A stretch of DNA of 64,000 bases, from assembly GCA_001793095.1 (NCBI GenBank), contig MGHG01000004.1, forward strand, positions 7,542 to 71,541, read 5' to 3'. Numbering within the stretch: position 1 is the stretch's first letter; every line of letters starts with the position of its first letter. The DNA is from Candidatus Woesebacteria bacterium RIFCSPLOWO2_01_FULL_39_23. GTDB taxonomy: Bacteria; Patescibacteriota; Microgenomatia; UBA8517. The translations under genes were made by a program, and so were the position numbers. This document shows positions 45,835 to 63,110 of the stretch, piece by piece. The notes beneath the pieces are model-generated. The model ran no database searches. It was not told where the DNA came from and worked only from the letters and a program-made list of their open reading frames with translations.

Positions 45835-46569
45835 ATGTCGAATGAACAAAAAGAATGGTGGACTATAAGGTTACCAATCGGTAAAAAGGAAAAAAATCCA
45901 CAACCACATATTGGTGGATTTAAAATGAAAGAAACGATCTTCCTTCCGCCTTCTAACTTTTTAGATAATTTATCAAGTTATTTTCATGAAGCAGGTCGTA
46001 TTATCGGAGAGACAATGTCATTTAGCGATGGGTCTGTACTTTTACCTGATGAAGCTAAGATCGCTAAGCTGCCTCTTAATTTTCAAGAACGTTTACGAAT
46101 ACTTAAACACATAGTAGGTAAACAGGATAAAGCAATGGATTCGTTTGAAGAAAGTGTCGCCAGTAAGATATTGCATTTATATACCAAAGGCAATTATCCC
46201 TTGGATAGAATTAAGTTAATAAATTTAAATCACGTTCAGTTTCAAAAATTTTTAGAACATTTAGCTAAAGATCAGGAACCAAACGATGTTTATGAAGTAG
46301 ACAAACAAGGCAATTTGTTCCCTAAATCTACAGATCGAGGTTTTTTAATTGAATTACCAGCTTACGCGGTAGAAATTGCTGGTATGACAATACTCTCAAA
46401 TAGTTTTTCCTCGGCTGATTTTAAATTCAAAGTTATTGAAGGTAAAACAGAAGGCTCGCACGATCGGGCTTTGAGCGAGGTATTAGTGGCTTATAAAGAA
46501 ACAGGAAGAATTTTACCGTCAGCCTTGGATTATCAACGATTTACCGAACACCATCAAATACATAGATAA
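45835..46569 (+). CDS. hypothetical protein
   Basis: 244-aa ORF. Confidence 0.35.
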   Translation: MSNEQKEWWTIRLPIGKKEKNPQPHIGGFKMKETIFLPPSNFLDNLSSYFHEAGRIIGETMSFSDGSVLLPDEAKIAKLPLNFQERLRILKHIVGKQDKAMDSFEESVASKILHLYTKGNYPLDRIKLINLNHVQFQKFLEHLAKDQEPNDVYEVDKQGNLFPKSTDRGFLIELPAYAVEIAGMTILSNSFSSADFKFKVIEGKTEGSHDRALSEVLVAYKETGRILPSALDYQRFTEHHQIHR

Positions 46570-46670
46570 GGTAAAGAATTAAGTTTTTACGGAGGCGGAT
46601 TCAGAAAAGTTAAAAAAGAATTTGCCTTTCGCTAATGTAAGCGGGTATACTGCATCAATAATTTACCTTT

Positions 46671-46689
46671 GACAGGGGTAACCCCTGTC
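46671..46689. repeat. 19-nt perfect palindrome GACAGGGGTAACCCCTGTC, copy 2 (intergenic, terminator-like context)
   Basis: Read directly; followed by acatatttt; 100 nt downstream of the preceding gene. Confidence 0.9.
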
Positions 46690-46815
46690 ACATATTTTCG
46701 CGTGAAACAGAAATTATATTCCATCTGCAGAAGTAAATAAATTTACAGCTTCATTTTATTTTTCACTTCACTGCTTGGGGAAGAAAAAAGATAGTAATTT
46801 AGATTTAAATACCTC

Positions 46816-46844
46816 TTGACACTGACTATATAGTCAGTAATAAT
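46816..46844 (+). promoter_or_regulatory. candidate sigma70-type promoter (TTGACA...TAATAAT) with an embedded 18-bp perfect palindrome ACTGACTATATAGTCAGT (46821-46838), putative LexA operator
   Basis: Read directly; ATG of lexA at 46851, suggesting a near-leaderless transcript. Confidence 0.45.
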
Positions 46845-46850
46845 TGGTTT

Positions 46851-47468
46851 ATGTCAAGTCTCAACGTTCTAACTAAAAGACAGGAGCAGGTATTGAAATT
46901 TATTTATACATCCATTAAGAGTTCCGGGTACCCTCCCACGCTTGCGGATTTAAGAGAAGAACTGGATGTGTCTTCAAACCAAGCTGTATTAGATTTTTTA
47001 AAAATTCTAGAAAATAAGAAACTTATAAAAAAGGAAGAAGGTGCTGCAAGAGGATTGAAAATATTAAAAAAAGGTTTTGAAGTTTTAGGAGTAAAAACTT
47101 TGATTCCATCGCTGGGAATTGTAGCAGCGGGACCTTTCAAATATTCGATGGAGGATCTTGAATGGAAAGAATTTGGAGATGCAAAAATAACCGATGATAT
47201 CTTCTTGGCAAAAATTAGTGGAGATTCGATGATTGGTGCAGGACTTGCGGATGGCGATCATGTAATAATACAAAAATCTCAAGAATTTAGAAATGGAGAG
47301 ATAGTGTTGGCTCGAGATAATAATGAAATGACTATCAAAACATTAGTGAGTGATAATGGTCGCTCATATTTAAAACCTGAGAACCCAAAATACAAAAATA
47401 TCCCAATCTACCCTGAAACTAGACTTATAGGAAAGGTAATTGGTAAAATTGGCGGGAAGAGAAAATAG
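46851..47468 (+). CDS. lexA: LexA repressor (S24 peptidase)
   Basis: N-terminal wHTH YPPTLADLREELDVSSNQAVLDFLKILENKKLIKK; cleavage-site region GIVAAGPF (Ala-Gly); Ser in GDSM and Lys in EMTIKTL. Confidence 0.8.
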   Translation: MSSLNVLTKRQEQVLKFIYTSIKSSGYPPTLADLREELDVSSNQAVLDFLKILENKKLIKKEEGAARGLKILKKGFEVLGVKTLIPSLGIVAAGPFKYSMEDLEWKEFGDAKITDDIFLAKISGDSMIGAGLADGDHVIIQKSQEFRNGEIVLARDNNEMTIKTLVSDNGRSYLKPENPKYKNIPIYPETRLIGKVIGKIGGKRK

Positions 47469-47470
47469 AT

Positions 47471-49414
47471 ATGGACAAGAGTGTAACTTCATATACAATC
47501 AATAAAATATTTAAGGACCCCAATTTGCAATTCGGACTCACAGAATTTGAAACGATTAAACCTTCAGAAGCGTTAGATATTTTTGAAAAGGAAAAGGGTA
47601 AATATTATCTTAAATGTTTAAAAAGAAACACAGATTTATTGGTTTGGAATGAAGAGAAGCGAGTGGGTGAACCCGAAGAAATAATCAGACAGCTTTGGTT
47701 ATATAAGTTAACCAAGTATTATAATTATCCCCTCGATAGAATTGCTGTTGAAAAAGAAGTGAATTTCGGCCGTGAAGTTCACGAAAAAGCCGCAGACATA
47801 ATCGTTTTTGATAAAGATAAGGAAACACCTGATATAGTTTTAGAAATAAAAAGCCCAGAAGCAAAAGATGGTTTGGAGCAAGTGAAAAGTTACCTTAATG
47901 CGGAAGGCGCATCTATCGGAGTATTAACGAACGGAATAATCAAAGTAATATTATATAGGCCATACCCCCATCAATTTGAAAATACACTTCGCGATATTCC
48001 AAGAATAGGCCAGACGATCGAAGATGTTCAGGAGGCTAAACTTACATTAGACCAACTTGAAAGAAAATACGATCTGGTAGCCATAATAAAAATTCTGGAA
48101 GAACTTGTCTTAGCGGGCGCGGGCGTAGACTCTTTTAATGAAATTTTCAAATTAATTTATGCAAAACTTTACGATGAAAAATATGCGAGAGATAGACACG
48201 GAGAACTTCTTTTCAGACAATCTTCCGAGGCCAGAATTACTTATGATAATATCGAGCGTCTATTTGAAAAGGCAACACAAGAATGGCCCGGAATGTTCAT
48301 CTCCGGTGAAAAAATTCTACTTTCACCTACTCATCTTTCTGTCTGCGTTGGAAATTTGGAAAAAATTAAACTTCTTGATGCGGAGTTAACAATAATAGAT
48401 AGAGCTTTTGAGTATTTACTTCCCGACGTTGCTAAAGGAAAGAGAGGCCAGTATTTTACTCCCAGACACGTTATTGATATGGCTGTAAAAATGCTTAATC
48501 CCAAAGAGGAAGAATATGTAATTGATCCCGCTTCAGGCTCAGGCGGGTTTTTAATTCATACTATGCAATGGGTGTGGGATAAACATATGTCTGAAAAATC
48601 ACACGAAACACAAATCGATTATGCAAAAACTCACGTTTACGGAATAGATTTTGATGATAAACCGGTTAAAATTTCGCGTGCATTAATGCTTATTGCCGGA
48701 GACGGTAAATCCCACATTTTTAAACTTAATTCCTTAAATCCCAAAGAGTGGATGGGAGAGGAGGGAGAAAAAGAAAAAGCAAGAGCGGAGCTTAGAGAAA
48801 GGCTGTATAAATTTAATGATTATGATAGGGACAGAGATAACGAAGAAAATTTCAGGAGTTTTGCATTCGACATGCTTTTAACCAATCCTCCATTTGCAGG
48901 CGAGATTATAGACCGTACGATTTTAAATATTTACGAACTGGCTAAAAACGACAAAGGAAAGTTAAGAAATAAAATGGAACGGCACATCTTGTTTATTGAA
49001 CGAGCGCTAAATTTGATAAAACCCGGAGGAAGATTAGCAATTGTTTTACCCCAGGGAGTTTTAAATAACACTAATATGGAATATATAAGAAACTGGCTTT
49101 TTAATAAAGCTAGAATTCTAGCTGTCGTAGGTTTGCATGTTAATACTTTTAAACCCCACACAGGAACTAAAACGTCGGTATTATTTTTGCAGAAGTGGAT
49201 AGAAAAAGAAGAACCACCCAAAGATTACTCCATATTTATGGCAGTTTCCAAAAAAAGTGGTAAAGACAAGAGTGGTGATTATGTATTTGTAAAAGACGAA
49301 AGTGGTCAATTTGCACTTGATGCAAAAGGAAATTTAAAAATTGACCACGACCTTGACGAAATCGCAAATAAGTTTATTGATTTCGCAAAGAAAGAAAGCT
49401 TCAATTTTTGGTGA
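47471..49414 (+). CDS. restriction-modification fusion protein: N-terminal PD-(D/E)xK nuclease-like domain plus gamma-class N6-adenine DNA methyltransferase (BcgI-A-like / Type IIB-IIG-like)
   Basis: N-terminal ADIIVFDKDKETPDIVLEIKSPE (D...EIK); MTase motif I VIDPASGSGGFL and motif IV LLTNPPFAG; starts 2 nt after the lexA stop. Confidence 0.7.
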   Translation: MDKSVTSYTINKIFKDPNLQFGLTEFETIKPSEALDIFEKEKGKYYLKCLKRNTDLLVWNEEKRVGEPEEIIRQLWLYKLTKYYNYPLDRIAVEKEVNFGREVHEKAADIIVFDKDKETPDIVLEIKSPEAKDGLEQVKSYLNAEGASIGVLTNGIIKVILYRPYPHQFENTLRDIPRIGQTIEDVQEAKLTLDQLERKYDLVAIIKILEELVLAGAGVDSFNEIFKLIYAKLYDEKYARDRHGELLFRQSSEARITYDNIERLFEKATQEWPGMFISGEKILLSPTHLSVCVGNLEKIKLLDAELTIIDRAFEYLLPDVAKGKRGQYFTPRHVIDMAVKMLNPKEEEYVIDPASGSGGFLIHTMQWVWDKHMSEKSHETQIDYAKTHVYGIDFDDKPVKISRALMLIAGDGKSHIFKLNSLNPKEWMGEEGEKEKARAELRERLYKFNDYDRDRDNEENFRSFAFDMLLTNPPFAGEIIDRTILNIYELAKNDKGKLRNKMERHILFIERALNLIKPGGRLAIVLPQGVLNNTNMEYIRNWLFNKARILAVVGLHVNTFKPHTGTKTSVLFLQKWIEKEEPPKDYSIFMAVSKKSGKDKSGDYVFVKDESGQFALDAKGNLKIDHDLDEIANKFIDFAKKESFNFW

Positions 49415-49418
49415 TAGT

Positions 49419-50063
49419 ATGAAAAAACTTTCTCAACCTACTCGTAAAGAATATAAAATGCCGCGTCTGTACCTTGATGATTTGGAAAAAATAGAAGAGA
49501 TCATCAAAGAAGTTAAACCTAAAGACTATAAAATTAAGTTCAGAGGTTATGAATATGATGAGCTTACAGAAGTTCCAAAGGACTCTGAATCTACAGAATT
49601 TCATTTACAAACATACGATCCATTTTTAAGTTTAGATTTAGACAATGGACATGCGAGTCTTTATATGTCCGATGATAACGTGACATCTAGAGGAATTTTT
49701 TCAAAGGTTGACGAAATAATTCTTAAAAGAGAAAGAAAAGTATTATGGTTATTTGGTCAATTAGCGGTCTGGATAGCGGCACCGATATTTCTCGGTTTCA
49801 TTCTCGTTTCGATAAAATTACTGAGAATGGATATTTTCAACATTAAAGGTTTGTCGTTTTTGATCTTAGCCTTATTAAGTGCCTATTGGTGGTATTTTTC
49901 TTTTCAGCTTAGTATGAAAAGTTTTTCTAAAATTGAGTTATGGAAAGAGAAAGATAAATTTAATTTCTTTCTGAGAAATAAAGATCAAATAATATTACTA
50001 GTTTTGGGGGCTTTTCTTGGTGCAATCGCAACGGTATTTTTAGAAAGGATATTTATTAAATGA
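49419..50063 (+). CDS. small membrane protein (about 3 TM helices) embedded in the RM operon
   Basis: VLWLFGQLAVWIAAPIFLGFILVSIKLL, LSFLILALLSAYWWYFSF, IILLVLGAFLGAIATVFL; stop overlaps the start of the specificity gene (ATGA). Confidence 0.4.
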   Translation: MKKLSQPTRKEYKMPRLYLDDLEKIEEIIKEVKPKDYKIKFRGYEYDELTEVPKDSESTEFHLQTYDPFLSLDLDNGHASLYMSDDNVTSRGIFSKVDEIILKRERKVLWLFGQLAVWIAAPIFLGFILVSIKLLRMDIFNIKGLSFLILALLSAYWWYFSFQLSMKSFSKIELWKEKDKFNFFLRNKDQIILLVLGAFLGAIATVFLERIFIK

Positions 50064-51397
50064 TTATTCATTCAATTATTCAAAAATCTCAACTTGAAGA
50101 AGCGAATCGACTTGATGCGGAATATTTTGTAGCAAATCAATTTTTTAAGAAATATTATTTGGGGAGTGAGATTGTCGATTTTGTACAGTATGGTACTTCT
50201 AAATATTTAAATGAAGATAAACTTGGTTATCCTACTCTAAGACTCAATGAGTTCGAGAATTACTTCATAAAAGAACCAGAAAAATTTTGTGACTTAATAA
50301 CTGAAGGTGTATTTAGAAATTTAGAACTTAAAGAGGGCGACATTCTTATTTGTAGGACCAATGGTAATCCAAAGTTAGTTGGTAAAAGTGCTATTGTTAT
50401 GGAAGACAAGCCCTACGCATACGCCTCTTATCTTTTTAGAGTAAGAACAAAATCTGAGAAGATTAATTCTGCCACCTTACTAACATATCTTCACTCATCT
50501 TATGGTAGGGCTGAGATTGAAAAGAATATGATGATTAGTAACCAAACCAATTTTAGTCCTGCCAGATTTAGATTAATTCGAATTCCAATGTTCGATGGGG
50601 AACTCCAAAGAGAAATAACCCTGTCAACCCAAGACGCGTATAAATTATCAAACAATGCAATTAAATTTTATCAGCAAGCAGAAGATTTACTGTTGGAGGA
50701 GTTGGGAATTTCTGATTTTGAAATTCCGCAGGATTTAACTTATGTTGTAAGTTTTTCTGAATTTGAAAATGCTAATCGAATAGATTCCGATTATTTTCAA
50801 CCAAAGTATGAACTATTAATATCAAAAATCAAAAATCAGGTCGCAAATAATTTATTAGAAGTATTTCAAAATATTTCGCCAGATTTTAAACCGAAATCCG
50901 ATGAAACTTACAAATATGTGGAATTGGCAAATATAAATTCTTCAATAGGAACTATAGACGGATTTTCCGAAGTTTTGGGAGGAGAAGCGCCTAGTAGAGC
51001 GAAAAGAATATTGAAAACAGGCGATGTTATTACATCTTCAGTTGAAGGATCGTTAGAAAAAGTTGCGCTTGTGGATTCGGAGCAGGATGGATTTTTAGCT
51101 TCCACCGGCTTTTTTCAATTTCGGAGCAGTCAAGTATTGCCCGAAGTACTTTTAGTTTTAGCAAGAAGTATTGTTTTTCAGATGCAAATACAAAAAGAAA
51201 CTGCCGGAACTATTTTAACTGCTGTTCCGAAAGAGGCTATTAGAAATATTAAAGTTCCTATATTATCAAGATCTATTCAGCAAAAAATTGCAGATTTGGT
51301 TAGAAAATCCCATGAAGCACGGAAGAAATCAAAACAACTTCTCGAAGAAGCAAAAAGTAAAGTCGAGGAAATGATTGAAAATGGAAGAAAAAACTAA
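50060..51397 (+). CDS. restriction-modification specificity (S) subunit with two target-recognition domains
   Basis: RLDAEYF and RIDSDYFQP (TRD starts); GDILICRTNGNPKLVGKSAIV and TGDVITSSVEGSLEKVALV; conserved central and distal helical repeats (...AEDLLLEELGI / ...IADLVRKSHEARKKSKQLLEEAK). Confidence 0.8.
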   Translation: MIIHSIIQKSQLEEANRLDAEYFVANQFFKKYYLGSEIVDFVQYGTSKYLNEDKLGYPTLRLNEFENYFIKEPEKFCDLITEGVFRNLELKEGDILICRTNGNPKLVGKSAIVMEDKPYAYASYLFRVRTKSEKINSATLLTYLHSSYGRAEIEKNMMISNQTNFSPARFRLIRIPMFDGELQREITLSTQDAYKLSNNAIKFYQQAEDLLLEELGISDFEIPQDLTYVVSFSEFENANRIDSDYFQPKYELLISKIKNQVANNLLEVFQNISPDFKPKSDETYKYVELANINSSIGTIDGFSEVLGGEAPSRAKRILKTGDVITSSVEGSLEKVALVDSEQDGFLASTGFFQFRSSQVLPEVLLVLARSIVFQMQIQKETAGTILTAVPKEAIRNIKVPILSRSIQQKIADLVRKSHEARKKSKQLLEEAKSKVEEMIENGRKN

Positions 51398-52229
51398 AGA
51401 TAAATTTAAAGCTGTTTGGCTTTCGCACAGCTCTATTGCTGATTTTTTGAAATGTCCGAGACTGTATTATCTCCGTAACGTTTATAAAGACCTTCGAACC
51501 AACCACAAAATGACAGTTATGACTCCTCCTCTTGCACTAGGCCAGGCTGTCCATGAAGTTGTCGAGGGATTATCCGTTCTTAAGATAAATGACAGATTTA
51601 CGGTATCTCCCTTAACAAAATTTGAAGTGAGTTGGAAGAAAATTGCGGGGGAGAAAGGCGGATTTAGGGATAACGTGCAGGAGGCGGAATTTAAAGAACG
51701 GGGGATTAAGATGCTTAAAAATTTAATAGACAATCCAGGACCATTATTAAGAAAGGCTGTAAAAATAAAAACCGAAGACGGACTTCCGTATTATTGGTTT
51801 TCCGAAGAAGAAAAAATAATTTTATGCGGAAAGATTGATTGGCTTGAGTATGTTGAGGATGGCAATTCAATCCATATTATAGATTTTAAAACAGGAAAAC
51901 ACGAAGAAGACGATTCCTCCCTCCAGCTTCCGATTTATTTATTGCTTGCGACAAATACACAAAAAAGAAAAATAGCAAAAGCAAGTTACTGGTATCTCGA
52001 TAATGGAGCCGGGTTAATCGAGAAAACACTTCCAGATATAAATGAATCAAAAGAAAAAGTGGGGAAAATTGCGCAGAGGATAAAACTTGCAAGACAGCTT
52101 AACCACTTTAAGTGTCCGACAAACGGATGCAAATATTGCATGCCCTTTGAAAGAGTCCTTAAGGGTGAGGGAAAGTGGGTGGGTACGAGCGACTACGGAC
52201 AGGATATTTATATTTTGAAACAAAACTAA
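51375..52229 (+). CDS. Cas4-like / RecB-family PD-(D/E)xK nuclease with predicted 4Fe-4S cluster (DUF83-like)
   Basis: WLSHSSIADFLKCPRLYYL (N-terminal Cys + motif I), IDFKTGK (D-x-K), QLPIYLLLA (QxxxY), C-terminal CPTNGCKYC (three Cys). Confidence 0.6.
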   Translation: MKMEEKTKDKFKAVWLSHSSIADFLKCPRLYYLRNVYKDLRTNHKMTVMTPPLALGQAVHEVVEGLSVLKINDRFTVSPLTKFEVSWKKIAGEKGGFRDNVQEAEFKERGIKMLKNLIDNPGPLLRKAVKIKTEDGLPYYWFSEEEKIILCGKIDWLEYVEDGNSIHIIDFKTGKHEEDDSSLQLPIYLLLATNTQKRKIAKASYWYLDNGAGLIEKTLPDINESKEKVGKIAQRIKLARQLNHFKCPTNGCKYCMPFERVLKGEGKWVGTSDYGQDIYILKQN

Positions 52230-52714
52230 TTGTTAGGTAATTTCTTAGCTCGCGGTAAACCCATTGAGGTTAGGGGAATTGTGATAGTAGAGTTGAATAA
52301 TTCTACAGACTTTCGAATAAAATCCTTGTCTCTAATTTGTCTATAATTAACCCCGGCTTCAATAAATCGTTTTTTAGCGTTCTGGCTGTATTCCGGATCG
52401 TTAGCTGCGAAAATAACGGTTTTAATTCCCACATCCAGTATGATACTTGTGCAATCCCGAACATTATTTATTGGACTTCGGTAACTGCAGGGTTCAAGTG
52501 TTGTATATAGAATAACTTTTTCATCTATTTTAATTCCCTTCAGGCGAGCAATCTCTAAAACCAAATCTTCAGCGTGTCGAACGCCGTCATGTGCACTAGG
52601 GGACAAGGCAAGAATACTCCCGTTTTTGACAAGACAAGCGGCCACAACTCCCTCCGGATCTTTTGATTTTTTAGCAACCTCAAAAAGTTCTTTAAAAATG
52701 TCTTTTTCGCTCAC
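52226..52714 (-). CDS. cytidine/deoxycytidylate deaminase family zinc-dependent deaminase
   Basis: VRHAEDLVL (H-A-E) and LEPCSYRSPINNVRDC (PC...C) zinc-binding signature. Confidence 0.65.
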   Translation of the reverse strand: MSEKDIFKELFEVAKKSKDPEGVVAACLVKNGSILALSPSAHDGVRHAEDLVLEIARLKGIKIDEKVILYTTLEPCSYRSPINNVRDCTSIILDVGIKTVIFAANDPEYSQNAKKRFIEAGVNYRQIRDKDFIRKSVELFNSTITIPLTSMGLPRAKKLPNN

Positions 52715-58679: not shown

Positions 58680-59006
58680 TTACCTCTTTGGTTTATAGTC
58701 TACTAGTTGAGTAGAACTGGAAATAACTCCTGATCCATTCTTCCTAATTAAGTGTACTATATACTGTGTTCTCGTATTATATTCTCCTATGCTTCTTCTT
58801 AGTTCTTCGCTAATGATTTTGTTTGGGTTATTGAATGTTATGTAACCGAATTTAAGCTGCTTTTCTGGGTCATCGCAAACTACAACAGCACCTCTTCCGT
58901 GTTTTCTTAAGCCGATTTTTGCAGCTTTTACTAACTGCTTTCTATTGCCCTCGATAACTGCATTAATTTCCTGAGTAATTGGTAAGGTTTTAATTTCTGC
59001 GACCAT
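58680..59006 (-). CDS. hypothetical protein
   Basis: 108-aa ORF. Confidence 0.3.
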   Translation of the reverse strand: MVAEIKTLPITQEINAVIEGNRKQLVKAAKIGLRKHGRGAVVVCDDPEKQLKFGYITFNNPNKIISEELRRSIGEYNTRTQYIVHLIRKNGSGVISSSTQLVDYKPKR

Positions 59007-59100
59007 AAATCTATTTCCGTTTTAAACTTCGAGGCGGAAGATGTCAAGAGTATATTTTTCACGGAATTTTAATTTCTCGCCTATAGCGGATAAGTTGTAG

Positions 59101-60357
59101 CTATAACCCCGGTTGGGGAGGAGTTTGTACTACAAAGTCAGTTGGTGTAAAATTTGCGCCGCTAGCGCTATCAAATCCATCGGGGTTTCTTTCGATAGCT
59201 TGATCCTGTGTTGGATTAAGGGGTGGCGTACCCCACTGCACTGTATCAATTATTACGTCAAGAGGATCGAGGAGTTGTAAAAGCCCAGTATCGACATTGA
59301 ATGTGACGCCGCCGAAATTAGCGGTGATAACTCCGTTGTCGTCATAACATTGCGTCCAGGTGGAATTGTCGTGACCAATAAGTGCGAATTGACCTGCCGG
59401 TAAATTGGTATTGGATGTAACCAAGTCAATGGTATTTGTCCCGTCCGTAATACTGAAGTTTTTCAGATTAACGGTGGTTGTGTAGCCGTTATAAACCTCT
59501 AGCCACTGGGCTTCTTTTTGCCCGATAAAACAGGAAGTATCGGGGAGAACTTCGTTAATAACAAGAACTTGGGCGATTCCCGGAGTTGGGGTAGGAGTTG
59601 ATTCAGTTGGCGGTGTAGGTGTCGGACCAAAACTCTCAGCTGCCGAGAGTACATTTCCAAAGCTTGTTTCGACATCTGATAAATATCCGGCAGATAAACC
59701 GACTAAAAAGATAGCAATTCCGGTTATTGGTACAATAATCGCATTTTTTGGCAAGCTTCCCACGTTTGGAGAGGAGGTTGCTTCATATTTTTTCTTAATA
59801 ATTGCCACGGACTTTTTTAGTTGGCTGACAAGAAACTTTATTTCTTCGTAGACAAATATTGTTCCGGGAACAATAACGAAGAGAATAAAACCGTATGGTT
59901 TTTTGGCAAAATCGGCCACGTAGCCGAAGTAGGGGAGAATTAAGACAACCTTACCGATAATATCACTCTGCCTAACCTTGAAATTATCAAAGCTCCGATT
60001 TGCGTCCCCTGCAGTTAAGAACTGGGCCTCCTTGTTAAGTCCGTCGGGAAATAGTTTGACTAGTGCCCGGTGGGTGATTGTATTTTTGCTGCCTTGTTGG
60101 TTAAAAGTGATTATATCTCCCGGAAGATAGTTATTTAGTGGTAAAGAGATAACAACACTCGCGAGCTTAATTTTAGGTTCCATCGAACCCGAATAGACGA
60201 TATAAAACCTCGGCAAGCGCTTTTGCAAATCAACCCAGGAAATATTGTCAATCGTATTAACGTCCGGTTGGACTAAATAGAAGGCAGTGTAAGTGATAAA
60301 CATAAGTGAAATGAAGATGTAGATAAATCCCAGAGTGAATAAAAACTTTCTTAACAT
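59101..60357 (-). CDS. SipW-like type I signal peptidase (S26) fused to a C-terminal lamin-tail domain
   Basis: IVYSGSMEPKI (S26 catalytic Ser motif) after a TM anchor; C-terminal VINEVLPD...EAQWLEVYN...VNLKNFSITDG matches the lamin-tail-domain pattern; Pro/Thr linker TPTPPTESTPTPTP. Start taken at the internal Met (MLRKFLF...) to avoid overlapping the upstream gene. Confidence 0.6.
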   Translation of the reverse strand: MLRKFLFTLGFIYIFISLMFITYTAFYLVQPDVNTIDNISWVDLQKRLPRFYIVYSGSMEPKIKLASVVISLPLNNYLPGDIITFNQQGSKNTITHRALVKLFPDGLNKEAQFLTAGDANRSFDNFKVRQSDIIGKVVLILPYFGYVADFAKKPYGFILFVIVPGTIFVYEEIKFLVSQLKKSVAIIKKKYEATSSPNVGSLPKNAIIVPITGIAIFLVGLSAGYLSDVETSFGNVLSAAESFGPTPTPPTESTPTPTPGIAQVLVINEVLPDTSCFIGQKEAQWLEVYNGYTTTVNLKNFSITDGTNTIDLVTSNTNLPAGQFALIGHDNSTWTQCYDDNGVITANFGGVTFNVDTGLLQLLDPLDVIIDTVQWGTPPLNPTQDQAIERNPDGFDSASGANFTPTDFVVQTPPQPGL

Positions 60358-60393
60358 AGTTGTCAACTTGTACAAAATAGAATAATGCCAGAT

Positions 60394-60432
60394 GAGAGAG
60401 AGGGGGGTACTATAATTCCCCCCTCTGTCTCC
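60394..60432 (-). terminator. G/C-rich hairpin between the TasA-like gene and the signal peptidase gene (possible attenuator)
   Basis: GAGAGAGGGGGG...CCCCCCTCTGTCTC imperfect inverted repeat; weak U-tract. Confidence 0.3.
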
Positions 60433-60451
60433 ACAATAAAAATAAAACCTC

Positions 60452-61366
60452 TTACAAAGGAAGAGGCGTAGGCGTTGAGGTAGGCGTAAGGTTGCATAAG
60501 AAATCATCATTATGCCTTGCCTGTACGGCCTCGAATACAATATCTCCCATGAGTAAATCGGTTTGGGAAATATTTCCAACCTCCGTTCCGTCGCAATTGA
60601 AACCTCCGTCTTCCGGTTCGCCGGGGGTCTGGTTGGCATTATTATCTCCGGCCGGTCCGTCGGGGTAATCACCCGGAGTCAGCGGGGCTTCAGTCAAAGT
60701 ACCAAAACAAAACGCTTTACCGATGTATTGGACTTCTTCTTCACCACCGATCAGAGGTTGACCCGTTTCTGAGTCGGCAAGTGCCCAACGGACGTCATTT
60801 AATACATTGCTTGCAGGTCCACTGGTGAGCACCTCTTCTTCTCTCTCGAGAATATTGTCACCGTCGTCCCTCCAGAAAATGAAATTCAGTTCTTGCGCCA
60901 GGTCACCGTCAGGTGTCCCGTCGCTGCCGTCTCCCGGAAGGCTATCAACTTCGTCTTCGGGTTCGGTTATACCGTTATCACTATTTTCAGTGGTATTTAT
61001 ATCAACGCAAGCCCACGAATCATTGTCAACGTGTAGACTGATGGTATCTTCCTCATAGTCGCCGGGTTTTAGATCCCGGAGAGCAAAAAACACATCGCCT
61101 TCAGCTAGATCTTTTAGTTCCCAGGTACAGAAACAAGGTTCATCGGTTCCTTCCCAAACACGGTCTGTAGGATCTTCCGTGCTCTCATTTAAGACACAGG
61201 TTCTACCATTGTAGTAACAGGTATTATCTACCTTAAGATCCAACGCACCGGCTGCAAGGATGTTTCCTGTTGACGTTTCTTCGTCGCTGAAAAATGCAGT
61301 TGTCGCTCCAACGACACTCCCAACAACTAAAGCTATTGCAAAGACAGATAGCAAAATTCTTTTCAC
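60452..61366 (-). CDS. secreted protein with SipW-cognate class signal peptide (TasA/camelysin-like)
   Basis: N-terminus VVGSVVGATTAFFSDEETSTGNILAAGALDL matches the SipW-cognate signal class; D/N/G-rich; paralogous to the next gene (DGPAGDNNANQTPGEPEDGGFNCDG). Confidence 0.6.
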   Translation of the reverse strand: MKRILLSVFAIALVVGSVVGATTAFFSDEETSTGNILAAGALDLKVDNTCYYNGRTCVLNESTEDPTDRVWEGTDEPCFCTWELKDLAEGDVFFALRDLKPGDYEEDTISLHVDNDSWACVDINTTENSDNGITEPEDEVDSLPGDGSDGTPDGDLAQELNFIFWRDDGDNILEREEEVLTSGPASNVLNDVRWALADSETGQPLIGGEEEVQYIGKAFCFGTLTEAPLTPGDYPDGPAGDNNANQTPGEPEDGGFNCDGTEVGNISQTDLLMGDIVFEAVQARHNDDFLCNLTPTSTPTPLPL

Positions 61367-61455
61367 AAATATTTTTCACCTCCTTTCTACAAATAACATA
61401 TCTTTTAACTTACATGTCATGAAATTATTCAGAGTTATTATTTGGGAATTTCAAA

Positions 61456-62904
61456 TTAGGGTGTTGGTGTTGTGCAAAGGGTTAGAGCCGTTAAAACGTT
61501 TTGTAGATCTTGGTAGTTGGCTACAGGGAAGTAATGCGAGGCATCATCTGCGATTTCCGTGGACAAATACGTTGAGTCGACGTCTCCTCCTACGCCGACT
61601 ACAAAAACCTCAATTCCCAATGCTCGTGCATTATCGGCCGCTGTTGCAGCAACGGCTCGTGCTGTTGCCTCCGGTGAAGGCAGGTTGGGATTACCGTCCG
61701 TCACAATAATCATGATATCGGGCGACACGCCATCCGGGCGATCGTGCGGATCGCCGGCAAGATTTGACAGTTCACCTGAAGCTAAGTCGACGCCTTGGAC
61801 GAGCCTGGTCAGACCGCCTGAGGCGAGCGAGTTAATGGCGGCTTGCACCGCTCCCGCATTATCTGTTAAATGTGAGTCTAGTGTTCCTGATGTTGCAAAA
61901 CTGACCTCGCCTGCGTGTACGCCGGTAGGTGAAAGTCCGAGAGCGGTCACAAAAGAATTCGCCGCGGTTTTAAGATCAGCTAATTCAGAAGAACTTATGC
62001 TGCCTGATCTATCCAGAACCAGCATAACGTCGAGTGGTTGGTTACAGGCAATGGGTGGGGTAGGCGTGATTCCTGAGCACACGAAGCCCGCATTATTTCT
62101 TGCTTGTGTGGCTTGGAAAGTGATATCTAAATTAAGCTCATCGGTTTGGGGTGCATTGTTTAGGTTACTTCCGTCACAGTTTACCCCGCCGTCAGCGGCC
62201 TCACCGGGAGTTCCGTTGGTATTATTATCTCCGGCCGGTCCGTCGGGATAATCTCCCTGGGGAAGAAGCGAAGGCGAAAGTACCCCAAGACACCAGGCCT
62301 TGCCTATATAGTAGGTTTGATCAGGTGATAATGGTTCGTCCGGGTTACCAAAAATATTTTCGGTTGAGTCGGCCACCGACCACGGAATTCCGTCAAAAAT
62401 ATTTTCTGCCTGACCACGCTTAAACGGAGATTCTCCAACCTCCCAAACGTTGTCACCGTCATCTGCCCAAAACACAAATGTCAGACTTGTACCTAACTCT
62501 CCGTCAAGATTATCCCCCCGAACAGTGTCGCAATTGGGGTCATCCGCCAGTTCAGGTTCCGTACATGCTGAATCGTCATCTTTTGTAAGGGTAGGAGTTG
62601 TGCACAACCAATACGGATTAGTGCTGCCGTGAATACTTATAGTATCCTCGCCGTAATCAGAGGGTTTAAGGTCGGTGAAATTAAAAAATAGTTGATCCGT
62701 AAGGTCGCTCATCTCCCAAGAAGTTGCTGGGGAAGATGCGCCGTTATAGAAGCTTTCGTTATCTATTTGTAAATTTATTTCTCCGGATGTTAGGGCGTTG
62801 CTGGTTGAGACTTCTTTGTCAGAGAAGAAGGCTTGAGTGAAGTATATCCCGATGAAGCTGATCAACCCGATTGTTAAAAGACTTAATAGAAGTTTTTTCA
62901 TCAC
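61456..62904 (-). CDS. secreted protein with SipW-cognate signal peptide and C-terminal von Willebrand factor A (VWA) domain
   Basis: N-terminus GIYFTQAFFSDKEVSTSNALTSGEINL; VWA MIDAS LVLDRSGS...TDGNP; GC-richer than the rest of the window. Confidence 0.65.
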   Translation of the reverse strand: MMKKLLLSLLTIGLISFIGIYFTQAFFSDKEVSTSNALTSGEINLQIDNESFYNGASSPATSWEMSDLTDQLFFNFTDLKPSDYGEDTISIHGSTNPYWLCTTPTLTKDDDSACTEPELADDPNCDTVRGDNLDGELGTSLTFVFWADDGDNVWEVGESPFKRGQAENIFDGIPWSVADSTENIFGNPDEPLSPDQTYYIGKAWCLGVLSPSLLPQGDYPDGPAGDNNTNGTPGEAADGGVNCDGSNLNNAPQTDELNLDITFQATQARNNAGFVCSGITPTPPIACNQPLDVMLVLDRSGSISSSELADLKTAANSFVTALGLSPTGVHAGEVSFATSGTLDSHLTDNAGAVQAAINSLASGGLTRLVQGVDLASGELSNLAGDPHDRPDGVSPDIMIIVTDGNPNLPSPEATARAVAATAADNARALGIEVFVVGVGGDVDSTYLSTEIADDASHYFPVANYQDLQNVLTALTLCTTPTP

Positions 62905-63110
62905 ACTATCTGGTTTTTTAAATAAACATACCTAAAATATAGACCGAAAGTTCGGATAAAACTTATACTTGTTTAAAGAAATATTAATAAACTGGAAACA
63001 GATTATATTATTGGGTTATAAGCTGTCAGTAAGAATTACTACAGGCGATTTGTGAGAATTCCAACCAAAAATGGGATTAGTGAGAAAATAAACACTCCTT
63101 GTAATATAAT

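What the first reader, a model, noticed from the sequence alone, without database searches (positions are those of the whole stretch)
46800..52229. LexA-headed operon encoding an atypical restriction-modification-like system (BcgI-like nuclease-MTase fusion, inserted membrane protein, two-TRD S subunit, Cas4-like Fe-S nuclease)
Seen in the sequence: the lexA stop (47466-68) is followed 2 nt later by the start of a 647-aa protein. Its N-terminus has a PD-(D/E)xK-like D...E-I-K motif (ADIIVFD...DIVLEIKSPE) and its C-terminal half is a gamma-class N6-adenine MTase (DPASGSGGFL, NPPF). Next come, with overlapping stop/starts, a 214-aa 3-TM membrane protein, a 445-aa specificity subunit with two TRDs and the conserved HsdS helical repeats, and a 284-aa protein with Cas4/RecB-family motifs (CPRLYYL, IDFKTGK, QLPIYLL, C-terminal CxxxxCxxC). 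There is no helicase-type HsdR gene. Established knowledge: the BcgI A subunit (about 637 aa) combines a PD-ExK endonuclease with a gamma-MTase and needs a separate S-like subunit (Type IIB). Cas4/DUF83 proteins are 4Fe-4S PD-(D/E)xK nucleases. Inference: this is a composite defence module whose membrane protein and Cas4-like nuclease are not part of canonical Type IIB systems, and which may be co-transcribed with, and thus SOS-coupled to, lexA. That combination is unusual and possibly undescribed.
Basis: partly seen in the sequence, partly recalled or inferred. Interest (0 to 1): 0.8.

Follow-up and report, generated by a model that had tools for sequence, protein, structure and literature searches.

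The report
LexA-controlled restriction operon with swappable cargo
In this groundwater bacterium of the Candidate Phyla Radiation (CPR), and in most of its relatives, the DNA-damage repressor LexA heads an operon for a two-protein restriction-modification enzyme whose middle holds interchangeable defence genes; the neighbouring "Cas4-like" nuclease is an unrelated housekeeping gene.

Summary
The window comes from Candidatus Woesebacteria RIFCSPLOWO2_01_FULL_39_23.

- **Enzyme.** The 647-aa protein is a nuclease-methyltransferase fusion. Its best full-length structural match is the Type IIB enzyme BsaXI, and all four BsaXI catalytic residues are conserved. No helicase-type HsdR was found.
- **LexA link.** This is real and conserved. 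lexA sits directly upstream of the fusion gene in 53 of 70 informative loci. 14 of 15 CPR-type lexA genes from metagenomes are followed by it, against 0 of 63 lexA genes from other phyla. An SOS-box-like palindrome fills the promoter spacer.
- **Membrane gene.** It is not a fixed component. It sits in a hypervariable slot between the fusion gene and hsdS. That slot holds 77 genes in 52 families, all co-oriented, including PD-T7-4, NYN, DUF3800 and trypsin-like genes.
- **Cas4-like gene.** It is a highly conserved CPR housekeeping nuclease. In other genomes it lies in unrelated contexts, so it is adjacent here by chance.

Verdict: partly supported. This is a new variant of known kinds (a Type IIB-like enzyme under DNA-damage control, carrying cargo). 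A 2017 study of the Patescibacteria SOS network, which I could not read, may already report the lexA link.

The parts
46670..46690 (+). Terminator-like hairpin followed by a T-run after the upstream gene (45835-46569). It marks the upstream boundary of the lexA transcription unit.
   Evidence: 9-bp stem with 6 GC pairs.
46816..46844 (+). Promoter of the operon: TTGACA, 17-nt spacer, AATAAT.
   Evidence: 11 of 12 matches, the best in the region. The same TTGAC-operator-TAtAAT layout is found upstream of lexA in 53 other loci.
46821..46838 (.). Putative LexA operator, a perfect 18-bp palindrome ACTGACTATATAGTCAGT that fills the promoter spacer.
   Evidence: It is unique in the window at up to 3 mismatches. 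Exact CTGAC-N6-GTCAG occurs 26 times in 1.24 Mb of loci, always at lexA promoters. Variants are conserved across loci.
46851..47468 (+). lexA: a winged-helix DNA-binding domain plus an S24 self-cleaving domain. The cleavage site A93-G94 and the catalytic S126 and K163 are conserved.
47471..49414 (+). Nuclease-methyltransferase fusion (647 aa). The PD-(D/E)xK domain covers aa 68-177 (47672-48001), with E94, D109, E125 and K127. A helical connector follows. The gamma-class N6-adenine methyltransferase covers aa 309-599 (48395-49267), with DPASGSGGF and NPPF. A C-terminal helix spans aa 628-641.
49458..50063 (+). Cargo-slot gene: a small membrane protein with a soluble N-terminal domain of about 95 aa and 2-3 transmembrane segments. 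Alternative starts are 49419 and 49341.
   Evidence: No family hit.
50060..51397 (+). Specificity (S) subunit with two target-recognition domains (about aa 24-210 and 259-441) and conserved helical regions.
51381..52229 (+). Cas4/RecB-family PD-(D/E)xK nuclease with four Cys (C25 and C-x4-C-x2-C). It is adjacent and probably read through from the operon, but it is not a conserved part of the system.

Best explanation
The region is a LexA-autoregulated operon that is typical of Candidate Phyla Radiation (CPR) bacteria.

**Proposed regulation.** LexA binds the palindrome that occupies the spacer of its own promoter and keeps transcription low. DNA damage, or phage-derived single-stranded DNA, would activate RecA and trigger LexA self-cleavage. 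The whole operon would then be derepressed.

**Proposed enzyme.** The operon encodes a helicase-less, Type IIB-like restriction-modification enzyme. The nuclease-methyltransferase fusion pairs with a two-TRD specificity subunit, probably as a complex of two fusion subunits and one S subunit, as in BsaXI. This complex would recognise a bipartite site, methylate adenine, and cut unmodified DNA with the N-terminal PD-(D/E)xK domain.

**Cargo.** Between the two enzyme genes lies a recombination-prone slot into which unrelated accessory defence genes are swapped. In this genome the slot holds a rare membrane protein, most likely an abortive-infection-type effector.

**Cas4-like gene.** It is a housekeeping CPR nuclease that merely abuts the operon.

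**Shown:** domain identities, conserved catalytic residues, gene order, operator conservation, cargo variability.
**Inferred:** LexA binding, SOS induction, complex stoichiometry, cleavage pattern, cargo function.
For: **Enzyme**
- The fusion protein has HSDR_N_2 plus N6_Mtase domains.
- The AlphaFold model has pLDDT 86. Its best matches are the three BsaXI fusion-subunit chains, at E 6e-28 to 2e-26 over about 660 columns. Type I HsdM proteins align over only 410-520 columns.
- The BsaXI catalytic residues E73, D90, E105 and K107 (PMC11997821) align to E94, D109, E125 and K127. These are invariant in 30 homologues sharing 42-80% identity.
- Relatives at 33-45% identity are single-chain fusions of nuclease, methyltransferase and S domains.
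- No helicase gene occurs in the window, and none is conserved within 8 kb in 80 loci.

**lexA link**
- lexA lies directly upstream in 53 of 70 informative loci.
- The gap between lexA and the fusion gene is -29 to +25 nt in 50 of 52 loci.
- 14 of 15 CPR-type lexA loci from metagenomes are followed by the fusion gene, against 0 of 63 non-CPR lexA loci.

**Operator**
- The TTGAC-operator-TAtAAT layout is conserved in 54 sites.
- Exact matches occur only at lexA promoters.
- The LexA self-cleavage residues are conserved.

**Cargo**
- The slot holds 77 genes in 52 families, all on the + strand.
- They include NYN, DUF3800, DUF4145 (equivalent to PD-T7-4, E 5e-89), trypsin-like and RnlA-like genes.
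- Identity of the NYN cargo gene is uncorrelated with identity of the fusion gene (r = 0.12).
- A homologue of the membrane protein sits between a methyltransferase and a ResIII helicase in another genome.
Against: - No expression, binding, methylome or cleavage data exist for this system.
- The N-terminal profile alone finds nothing in the PDB by sequence. The sequence alignment to the BsaXI nuclease domain is weak on its own (domain E 26).
- SOS induction of a restriction enzyme runs against the classical picture, in which restriction is alleviated after DNA damage.
- An hsdR gene elsewhere in the genome cannot be excluded from 64 kb of sequence.
- The function of the membrane protein rests only on its position.
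- No terminator separates hsdS from the Cas4-like gene. The Cas4-like gene may therefore be co-expressed here even though it is not conserved with the system.
Confidence: 0.7

Rival explanations
1. The LexA-like protein is not the global SOS repressor. It is a dedicated controller of the restriction-modification operon, an analogue of a C-protein, which evolved from LexA and regulates only its own operon.
For: - The operator was found only at lexA promoters in 1.24 Mb of sequence, and once in the window.
- The linkage to the fusion gene is almost universal for CPR-type lexA.
- In L093 the same LexA and operator head a different system. There LexA is fused in frame to an N6_N4 methyltransferase and is followed by a MutH/Sau3AI-like nuclease.
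- Two loci carry a second, divergent S24 repressor nearby.
Against: - The protein passes the curated lexA equivalog cutoff.
- It keeps the Ala-Gly cleavage site and the Ser/Lys dyad in all 12 aligned members. A simple controller would not need these.
- The sequence sampled is biased to the neighbourhood of the operon, so other targets could not have been seen.
- The 2017 Patescibacteria SOS study reportedly defined a wider regulon. This is from memory and unverified.
Confidence: 0.2
2. One reading: a five-gene composite defence module in which the membrane protein and the Cas4-like Fe-S nuclease are integral partners of the restriction-modification core.
For: - The genes are tightly packed or overlapping on one strand.
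- No terminator was predicted inside the cluster.
- The Cas4-like protein scores against Cas4 and other defence-nuclease models.
Against: - No Cas4-like homologue follows hsdS in any of 63 other loci that have hsdS.
- The Cas4-like family has 6710 members sharing 60-76% identity. The three sampled lie next to ftsA/ftsZ/ileS, a uvrC-like gene, or dnaE/rplS.
- The membrane protein has only 6 homologues, and none lies in the 80 loci.
Confidence: 0.05
3. This is a modification-only or epigenetic system. The N-terminal nuclease domain is catalytically dead or repurposed, and the operon serves SOS-linked methylation rather than defence.
For: - PADLOC and sources name the family simply as a Type I methyltransferase or N-6 DNA methylase.
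- The fusion protein is very highly conserved, at 50-82% identity across distant CPR classes. This is unusual for a defence gene.
Against: - All four nuclease catalytic residues are invariant in 30 diverse homologues.
- The slot is filled with recognised defence genes.
Confidence: 0.08

Closest known systems
Type IIB restriction-modification enzymes built from a nuclease-methyltransferase fusion plus a separate S subunit (BcgI, BsaXI, BveI and others)
   Same: The domain order is the same: an N-terminal PD-(D/E)xK nuclease, a helical connector, a gamma-class N6-adenine methyltransferase and a C-terminal helix. There is a separate two-TRD S subunit and no ATPase. BsaXI is the best full-length structural match, and its four catalytic residues are conserved.
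   Different: Identity to BsaXI is only about 20-22%. The protein lacks the BsaXI 'knob' and 'paddle' (647 aa against 916 aa). The S subunit is of Type I size (445 aa). Cleavage on both sides of the site is untested. The genes are split by a cargo slot and placed under lexA.
Type I restriction-modification loci with embedded accessory genes (prrC in EcoprrI; rlo genes in Campylobacter jejuni hsd loci). From memory.
   Same: Unrelated effector genes are inserted between hsd genes and co-transcribed. NYN and RnlA-like RNases, proteases and membrane proteins resemble abortive-infection effectors that could back up the restriction enzyme.
   Different: There is no HsdR translocase. The slot lies between the fusion gene and hsdS and is hypervariable across a whole superphylum. 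No guard relationship has been shown.
DNA-damage-responsive control of defence systems (CapH/CapP and CapW/BrxR, from memory; a Moraxellaceae activator linking the damage response to anti-phage defence, PMC12392091, title and abstract only)
   Same: An immune operon sits behind a repressor that is inactivated by a DNA-damage signal.
   Different: Here the repressor is canonical LexA itself, encoded as the first gene of the operon, and the cargo is a restriction-modification enzyme.
MADS (methylation-associated defence system), proteins MAD2 and MAD5
   Same: The fusion protein and S subunit hit the MAD2 and MAD5 models.
   Different: Scores are far below the curated cutoffs: 313 against 720 bits, and 103 against 400 bits. 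None of the other MAD genes is present.

Membership tests
Type IIB restriction-modification (fusion + S group) | One polypeptide carrying an N-terminal PD-(D/E)xK nuclease and a gamma-class N6-adenine methyltransferase | tested here: met
   HSDR_N_2 E 2e-20 plus N6_Mtase E 5e-37. Foldseek top hits are BsaXI fusion-subunit chains over the full length. E94, D109, E125 and K127 are invariant. DPASGSGGF and NPPF are present.
Type IIB restriction-modification (fusion + S group) | A separate specificity subunit with two target-recognition domains | tested here: met
   Two-stretch hits to Type I S models. PDB hits to HsdS chains 5ybb_D, 3okg_A and 2y7c_A. hsdS is conserved downstream in 63 other loci.
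Type IIB restriction-modification (fusion + S group) | No ATP-dependent translocase subunit | tested here: inconclusive
   None is in the 64-kb window, and none is conserved within 8 kb in 80 loci. The rest of the genome was not seen.
Type IIB restriction-modification (fusion + S group) | Cleavage on both sides of a bipartite site, excising a short fragment | not testable with these tools
   This needs purified enzyme and mapping of the cut sites.
Type I restriction-modification | An HsdR subunit with a nuclease and an SF2 helicase motor | tested here: not met
   No ResIII or helicase ORF is in the window. The nuclease domain is fused to the methyltransferase instead.
LexA / SOS repressor | LexA DNA-binding domain plus S24 peptidase, with the Ala-Gly site and the Ser/Lys dyad | tested here: met
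   TIGR00498 at 136 bits against a cutoff of 111. A93-G94, S126 and K163 are conserved. Best PDB hits are full-length LexA repressors.
LexA / SOS repressor | A palindromic operator overlapping its own promoter (autoregulation) | tested here: met
   An 18-bp perfect palindrome lies in the spacer between -35 and -10. The layout is conserved in 54 loci. Binding itself was not tested.
LexA / SOS repressor | RecA-stimulated cleavage and a wider damage regulon | not testable with these tools
   Only 64 kb of this genome is available. No second operator is in the window.
Cas4 (CRISPR adaptation nuclease) | RecB-type nuclease with four Cys, encoded in a CRISPR-cas locus | tested here: not met
   The fold family and Cys pattern are present. 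However, TIGR00372 scores 42 bits against a cutoff of 65. No cas genes are nearby, and homologues lie in housekeeping contexts.
MADS | MAD2 and MAD5 above cutoff, together with the other MAD genes | tested here: not met
   313 against 720 bits and 103 against 400 bits. The other ORFs give no mad hits.

The most novel reading that the evidence does not exclude
Across the Candidate Phyla Radiation, the lexA operon is an SOS-inducible immune operon. In this reading the Type IIB-like enzyme is both a first-line restriction system and a docking platform for horizontally swapped abortive-infection effectors. These effectors would be held latent by the enzyme complex, in the manner of PrrC and EcoprrI, and unleashed when phage disables restriction. 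LexA would thus have been recruited mainly as an infection sensor in these reduced genomes. The L093 locus fits this reading: there the same LexA and operator are fused to a different methyltransferase and are followed by a nuclease and a reverse transcriptase.
Probability: 0.2. Interest if true: 0.75.

Novelty: new variant of a known kind. Interest (0 to 1): 0.5.

Why it matters
CPR bacteria mostly lack CRISPR and have tiny genomes, so how they defend themselves is an open question. This result shows that their canonical SOS repressor is almost always the first gene of a restriction-modification operon. Classically, restriction is switched down after DNA damage; here it would be switched up.

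The operon also contains a defined, hypervariable slot that already holds validated and candidate anti-phage genes. That makes it a practical place to discover new defence genes. It also offers a compact, helicase-free, programmable enzyme family for biochemical study.

Tried and rejected
- **First AlphaFold run.** With a 10-sequence alignment it gave pLDDT 45 and was discarded. A 39-sequence alignment that included 50%-cluster representatives gave pLDDT 86.
- **N-terminal profile against the PDB.** A profile of residues 1-310 found nothing at E <= 1. The nuclease assignment therefore rests on Pfam, the invariant residues and the fold match.
- **The 2017 Patescibacteria SOS paper.** I tried to read it by DOI and by PMID; it is not held. 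Citing papers gave only the hint that its LexA motif was read as a direct repeat. Literature searches for LexA with restriction-modification in CPR found nothing else.
- **One-mismatch operator hits elsewhere in loci.** All fell inside coding sequence, so I treated them as chance.
- **LexA operators upstream of three Cas4-like homologues.** None was convincing.
- **MADS membership.** Rejected on score and gene content.
- **PDDEXK_1 gene near the membrane-protein homologue in L164.** It is not orthologous to the window's Cas4-like gene.


Full report
**Observation**

The window is from Candidatus Woesebacteria bacterium RIFCSPLOWO2_01_FULL_39_23; the 647-aa protein is 100% identical to a protein from that genome.
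- lexA, 46851-47468
- a 647-aa ORF, 47471-49414, starting 2 nt after the lexA stop
- a small membrane ORF ending at 50063
- an hsdS-like ORF, 50060-51397
- a Cas4-like ORF ending at 52229

All quoted peptide motifs are present. Profile searches confirm the domain calls.

Upstream of lexA there is a terminator-like hairpin at 46670-46690. The best promoter match in the region is TTGACA-17-AATAAT at 46816-46844. No terminator-like site lies between lexA and the next gene.

**The enzyme**

The 647-aa protein combines the Pfam nuclease domain HSDR_N_2 (aa 68-177, E 2e-20) with N6_Mtase (aa 309-599, E 5e-37). By sequence, its best solved relative is the nuclease-methyltransferase subunit of the Type IIB enzyme BsaXI (E 9e-27).

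Mutagenesis of BsaXI identified E73, D90, E105 and K107 as essential for cleavage (PMC11997821). In the HMMER alignment these fall on E94, D109, E125 and K127 of the window protein. All four are invariant in 30 homologues sharing 42-80% identity.

That N-terminal alignment is weak on its own, and a profile of the N-terminal 310 residues finds nothing in the PDB by sequence. I therefore predicted the structure. A shallow alignment failed (pLDDT 45). A 39-sequence alignment gave pLDDT 86 and pTM 0.79.

Foldseek against the PDB ranks the three BsaXI fusion-subunit chains first, at E 6e-28 to 2e-26, aligned over about 660 columns, which is the whole protein. Type I HsdM subunits follow and align only over 410-520 columns.

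Other points fit the Type IIB group that has a fusion subunit plus a separate S subunit (PMC11997821):
- The model ends in a lone C-terminal helix, as described for that group.
- More distant relatives are single-chain fusions of nuclease, methyltransferase and S domains.
- The S protein has two target-recognition domains and matches solved HsdS chains.
- No helicase-type HsdR is in the window, and none recurs within 8 kb of the gene in 80 related loci.

**The lexA link**

I fetched 80 genomic loci encoding relatives of the fusion protein (49-82% identity). Nearly all come from CPR/Patescibacteria lineages.
- A lexA homologue lies directly upstream on the same strand in 55 of them by tblastn.
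- Counting only loci with enough upstream sequence, the figure is 53 of 70, the window included.
- The ORF-based gap between lexA and the fusion gene is -29 to +25 nt in 50 of 52 loci.

The reverse test used a LexA profile against metagenome contigs. Of 17 CPR-type lexA loci (at least 42% identity), 15 had at least 400 nt of downstream sequence, and 14 of those continue into the fusion gene. None of 63 lexA loci from other phyla does.

The protein is a bona fide LexA by several criteria:
- It passes the curated equivalog cutoff.
- Its best PDB hits are full-length LexA repressors.
- The Ala93-Gly94 cleavage site and the Ser126/Lys163 dyad are conserved in 12 diverse members.

**The operator**

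The window's promoter spacer is filled by a perfect 18-bp palindrome, ACTGACTATATAGTCAGT (46821-46838). It is unique in the window even at 3 mismatches. Its outline, TACTG-N10-CAGTA, resembles the E. coli SOS box (established knowledge).

The same layout, TTGAC(A)-operator-TAtAAT-ATG, appears upstream of lexA in 53 other loci. There are lineage-specific variants: CTGACyAwwTrGTCAG, TAGACCAAATAGTCAT and CCCGAC-N6-GTCGGG.

Exact CTGAC-N6-GTCAG occurs 26 times in 1.24 Mb of fetched loci, and every occurrence is at a lexA promoter. The one-mismatch hits elsewhere lie inside genes.

This is strong comparative evidence for autoregulation and co-transcription. Binding and induction remain inferred.

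**The membrane protein and the cargo slot**

Clustering all ORFs of the loci shows that only three families recur: the fusion protein, the S subunit and LexA. Between the fusion gene and hsdS there are 0-5 extra genes.
- In total the slot holds 77 genes in 52 families, all on the operon strand.
- The slot is occupied in 38 of 45 lexA-linked loci.
- Occupants include an NYN RNase (10 loci), DUF3800, DUF4145, trypsin-like peptidases, an RnlA-like protein and many orphans. About a quarter have predicted transmembrane segments.
- Against PADLOC, the DUF4145 family is a full-length match to PD-T7-4 (E 5e-89). The DUF3800 and trypsin-like families match candidate systems PDC-M04A and PDC-S45.
- Identity of the NYN gene is uncorrelated with identity of the flanking fusion gene (r = 0.12). 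Some NYN pairs share 89% identity where the fusion genes share only 40-55%. The cargo therefore moves horizontally between operons.

The window's membrane protein matches no family and has only six homologues among 5.8 billion proteins. One of them, 41% identical, sits between an N6_N4 methyltransferase and a ResIII/SNF2 helicase in another genome. That is again inside a restriction-modification locus.

The membrane protein is therefore best read as one accessory cargo gene, not as a defining component. Its function is inferred from position only.

**The Cas4-like gene**

None of the other loci has a homologue after hsdS. The protein belongs to a very large family of 6710 hits. The top 120 hits share 59-99% identity and are annotated as Patescibacteria proteins.

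Three homologues on long contigs lie beside ftsA/ftsZ/ileS, a uvrC-like gene, or dnaE/rplS, with no restriction-modification genes nearby. The protein scores below the curated Cas4 cutoff.

It is a conserved housekeeping nuclease that happens to abut this operon. Its start overlaps the hsdS stop and no terminator intervenes, so it may be read through in this genome. That is a local accident rather than a system feature.

**Mechanism**

The best-supported model is a LexA-autoregulated operon for a Type IIB-like enzyme made of a fusion subunit and an S subunit, with swappable defence cargo. It would be derepressed when RecA senses DNA damage or phage DNA.

The main rival is that this LexA acts chiefly as a dedicated controller of restriction-modification. 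Locus L093 hints at this. There the same operator and LexA are fused in frame to a different methyltransferase, and are followed by a MutH/Sau3AI-like nuclease and an HTH-reverse transcriptase pair. The conserved self-cleavage machinery argues that damage sensing matters in either case.

**Novelty**

The enzyme is a new member of a known kind. Placing it behind LexA across a superphylum, with a hypervariable cargo slot splitting its two genes, is a new variant.

One caveat applies. A 2017 comparative study of the Patescibacteria LexA regulon exists and is cited, but it is not in the library. From memory only, it may already list the downstream hsdM/hsdS-like genes as SOS-regulated. A citing paper says its motif was read as a direct repeat. 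That is compatible with the TAGAC-N4-TAGTC form seen here. No other paper in the library links LexA to restriction-modification in these bacteria.

Noticed in passing
L001-L080, 42-89 nt upstream of lexA starts (not in the window's own upstream region): A DnaA-box-like TTATCCACA (up to 1 mismatch) occurs upstream of the lexA promoter in 30 of 53 loci. The background rate is 0.057 per 160 nt. This suggests a second, DnaA-like input into the operon in Parcubacteria-type lineages.
   Followed up: partly
L093:5955-10197: The same operator (CTGACCAATTGGTCAG) and LexA are fused in frame to an N6_N4 methyltransferase (495-aa ORF). They are followed by a MutH/Sau3AI-like protein, an HTH protein and a reverse transcriptase. 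A uvrB-like ORF (my identification from the ORF translation; no profile search run) is divergent upstream.
   Followed up: partly
L013:3404-4042 and L074:7313-7975: A second, divergent HTH plus S24 LexA-like repressor is encoded a few kb from the lexA operon in two genomes.
   Followed up: no
L028, L029, L037, L040 (gene directly upstream of the fusion gene): In several loci that lack lexA, a RadC-like ORF (my identification from the sequence; no profile search run) takes the place of lexA. In another lexA-less group (L057, L058, L063, L073, L075) a recombinase-like ORF of about 540 aa (also not profile-searched) lies next to the fusion and S genes, and the slot is empty.
   Followed up: no
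L164:5252-12412: The closest long-contig homologue of the membrane protein lies in a defence island with this gene order: N6_N4 methyltransferase, membrane protein, ResIII/SNF2 helicase, AAA_15/AAA_21 ATPase, PDDEXK_1 nuclease. That nuclease is not orthologous to the window's Cas4-like gene.
   Followed up: partly
L010-L023, L070-L077, between the DnaA-like box and the -35 element: A second conserved palindrome (AAAATGGCTTAnnnTAAGCCATTTT, or TTAGCCAAATT) lies just upstream of the lexA promoter in Parcubacteria-type loci. It could be another operator or a terminator of the upstream gene.
   Followed up: no
window 52226-52714 (- strand): A cytidine/dCMP deaminase-family gene converges on the Cas4-like gene and overlaps it by 4 nt.
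   Followed up: no
window 59000-63000: GC content rises to 0.43-0.47, against about 0.32-0.40 elsewhere. The region encodes - strand proteins with Lamin Tail Domain and von Willebrand A domains.
   Followed up: no
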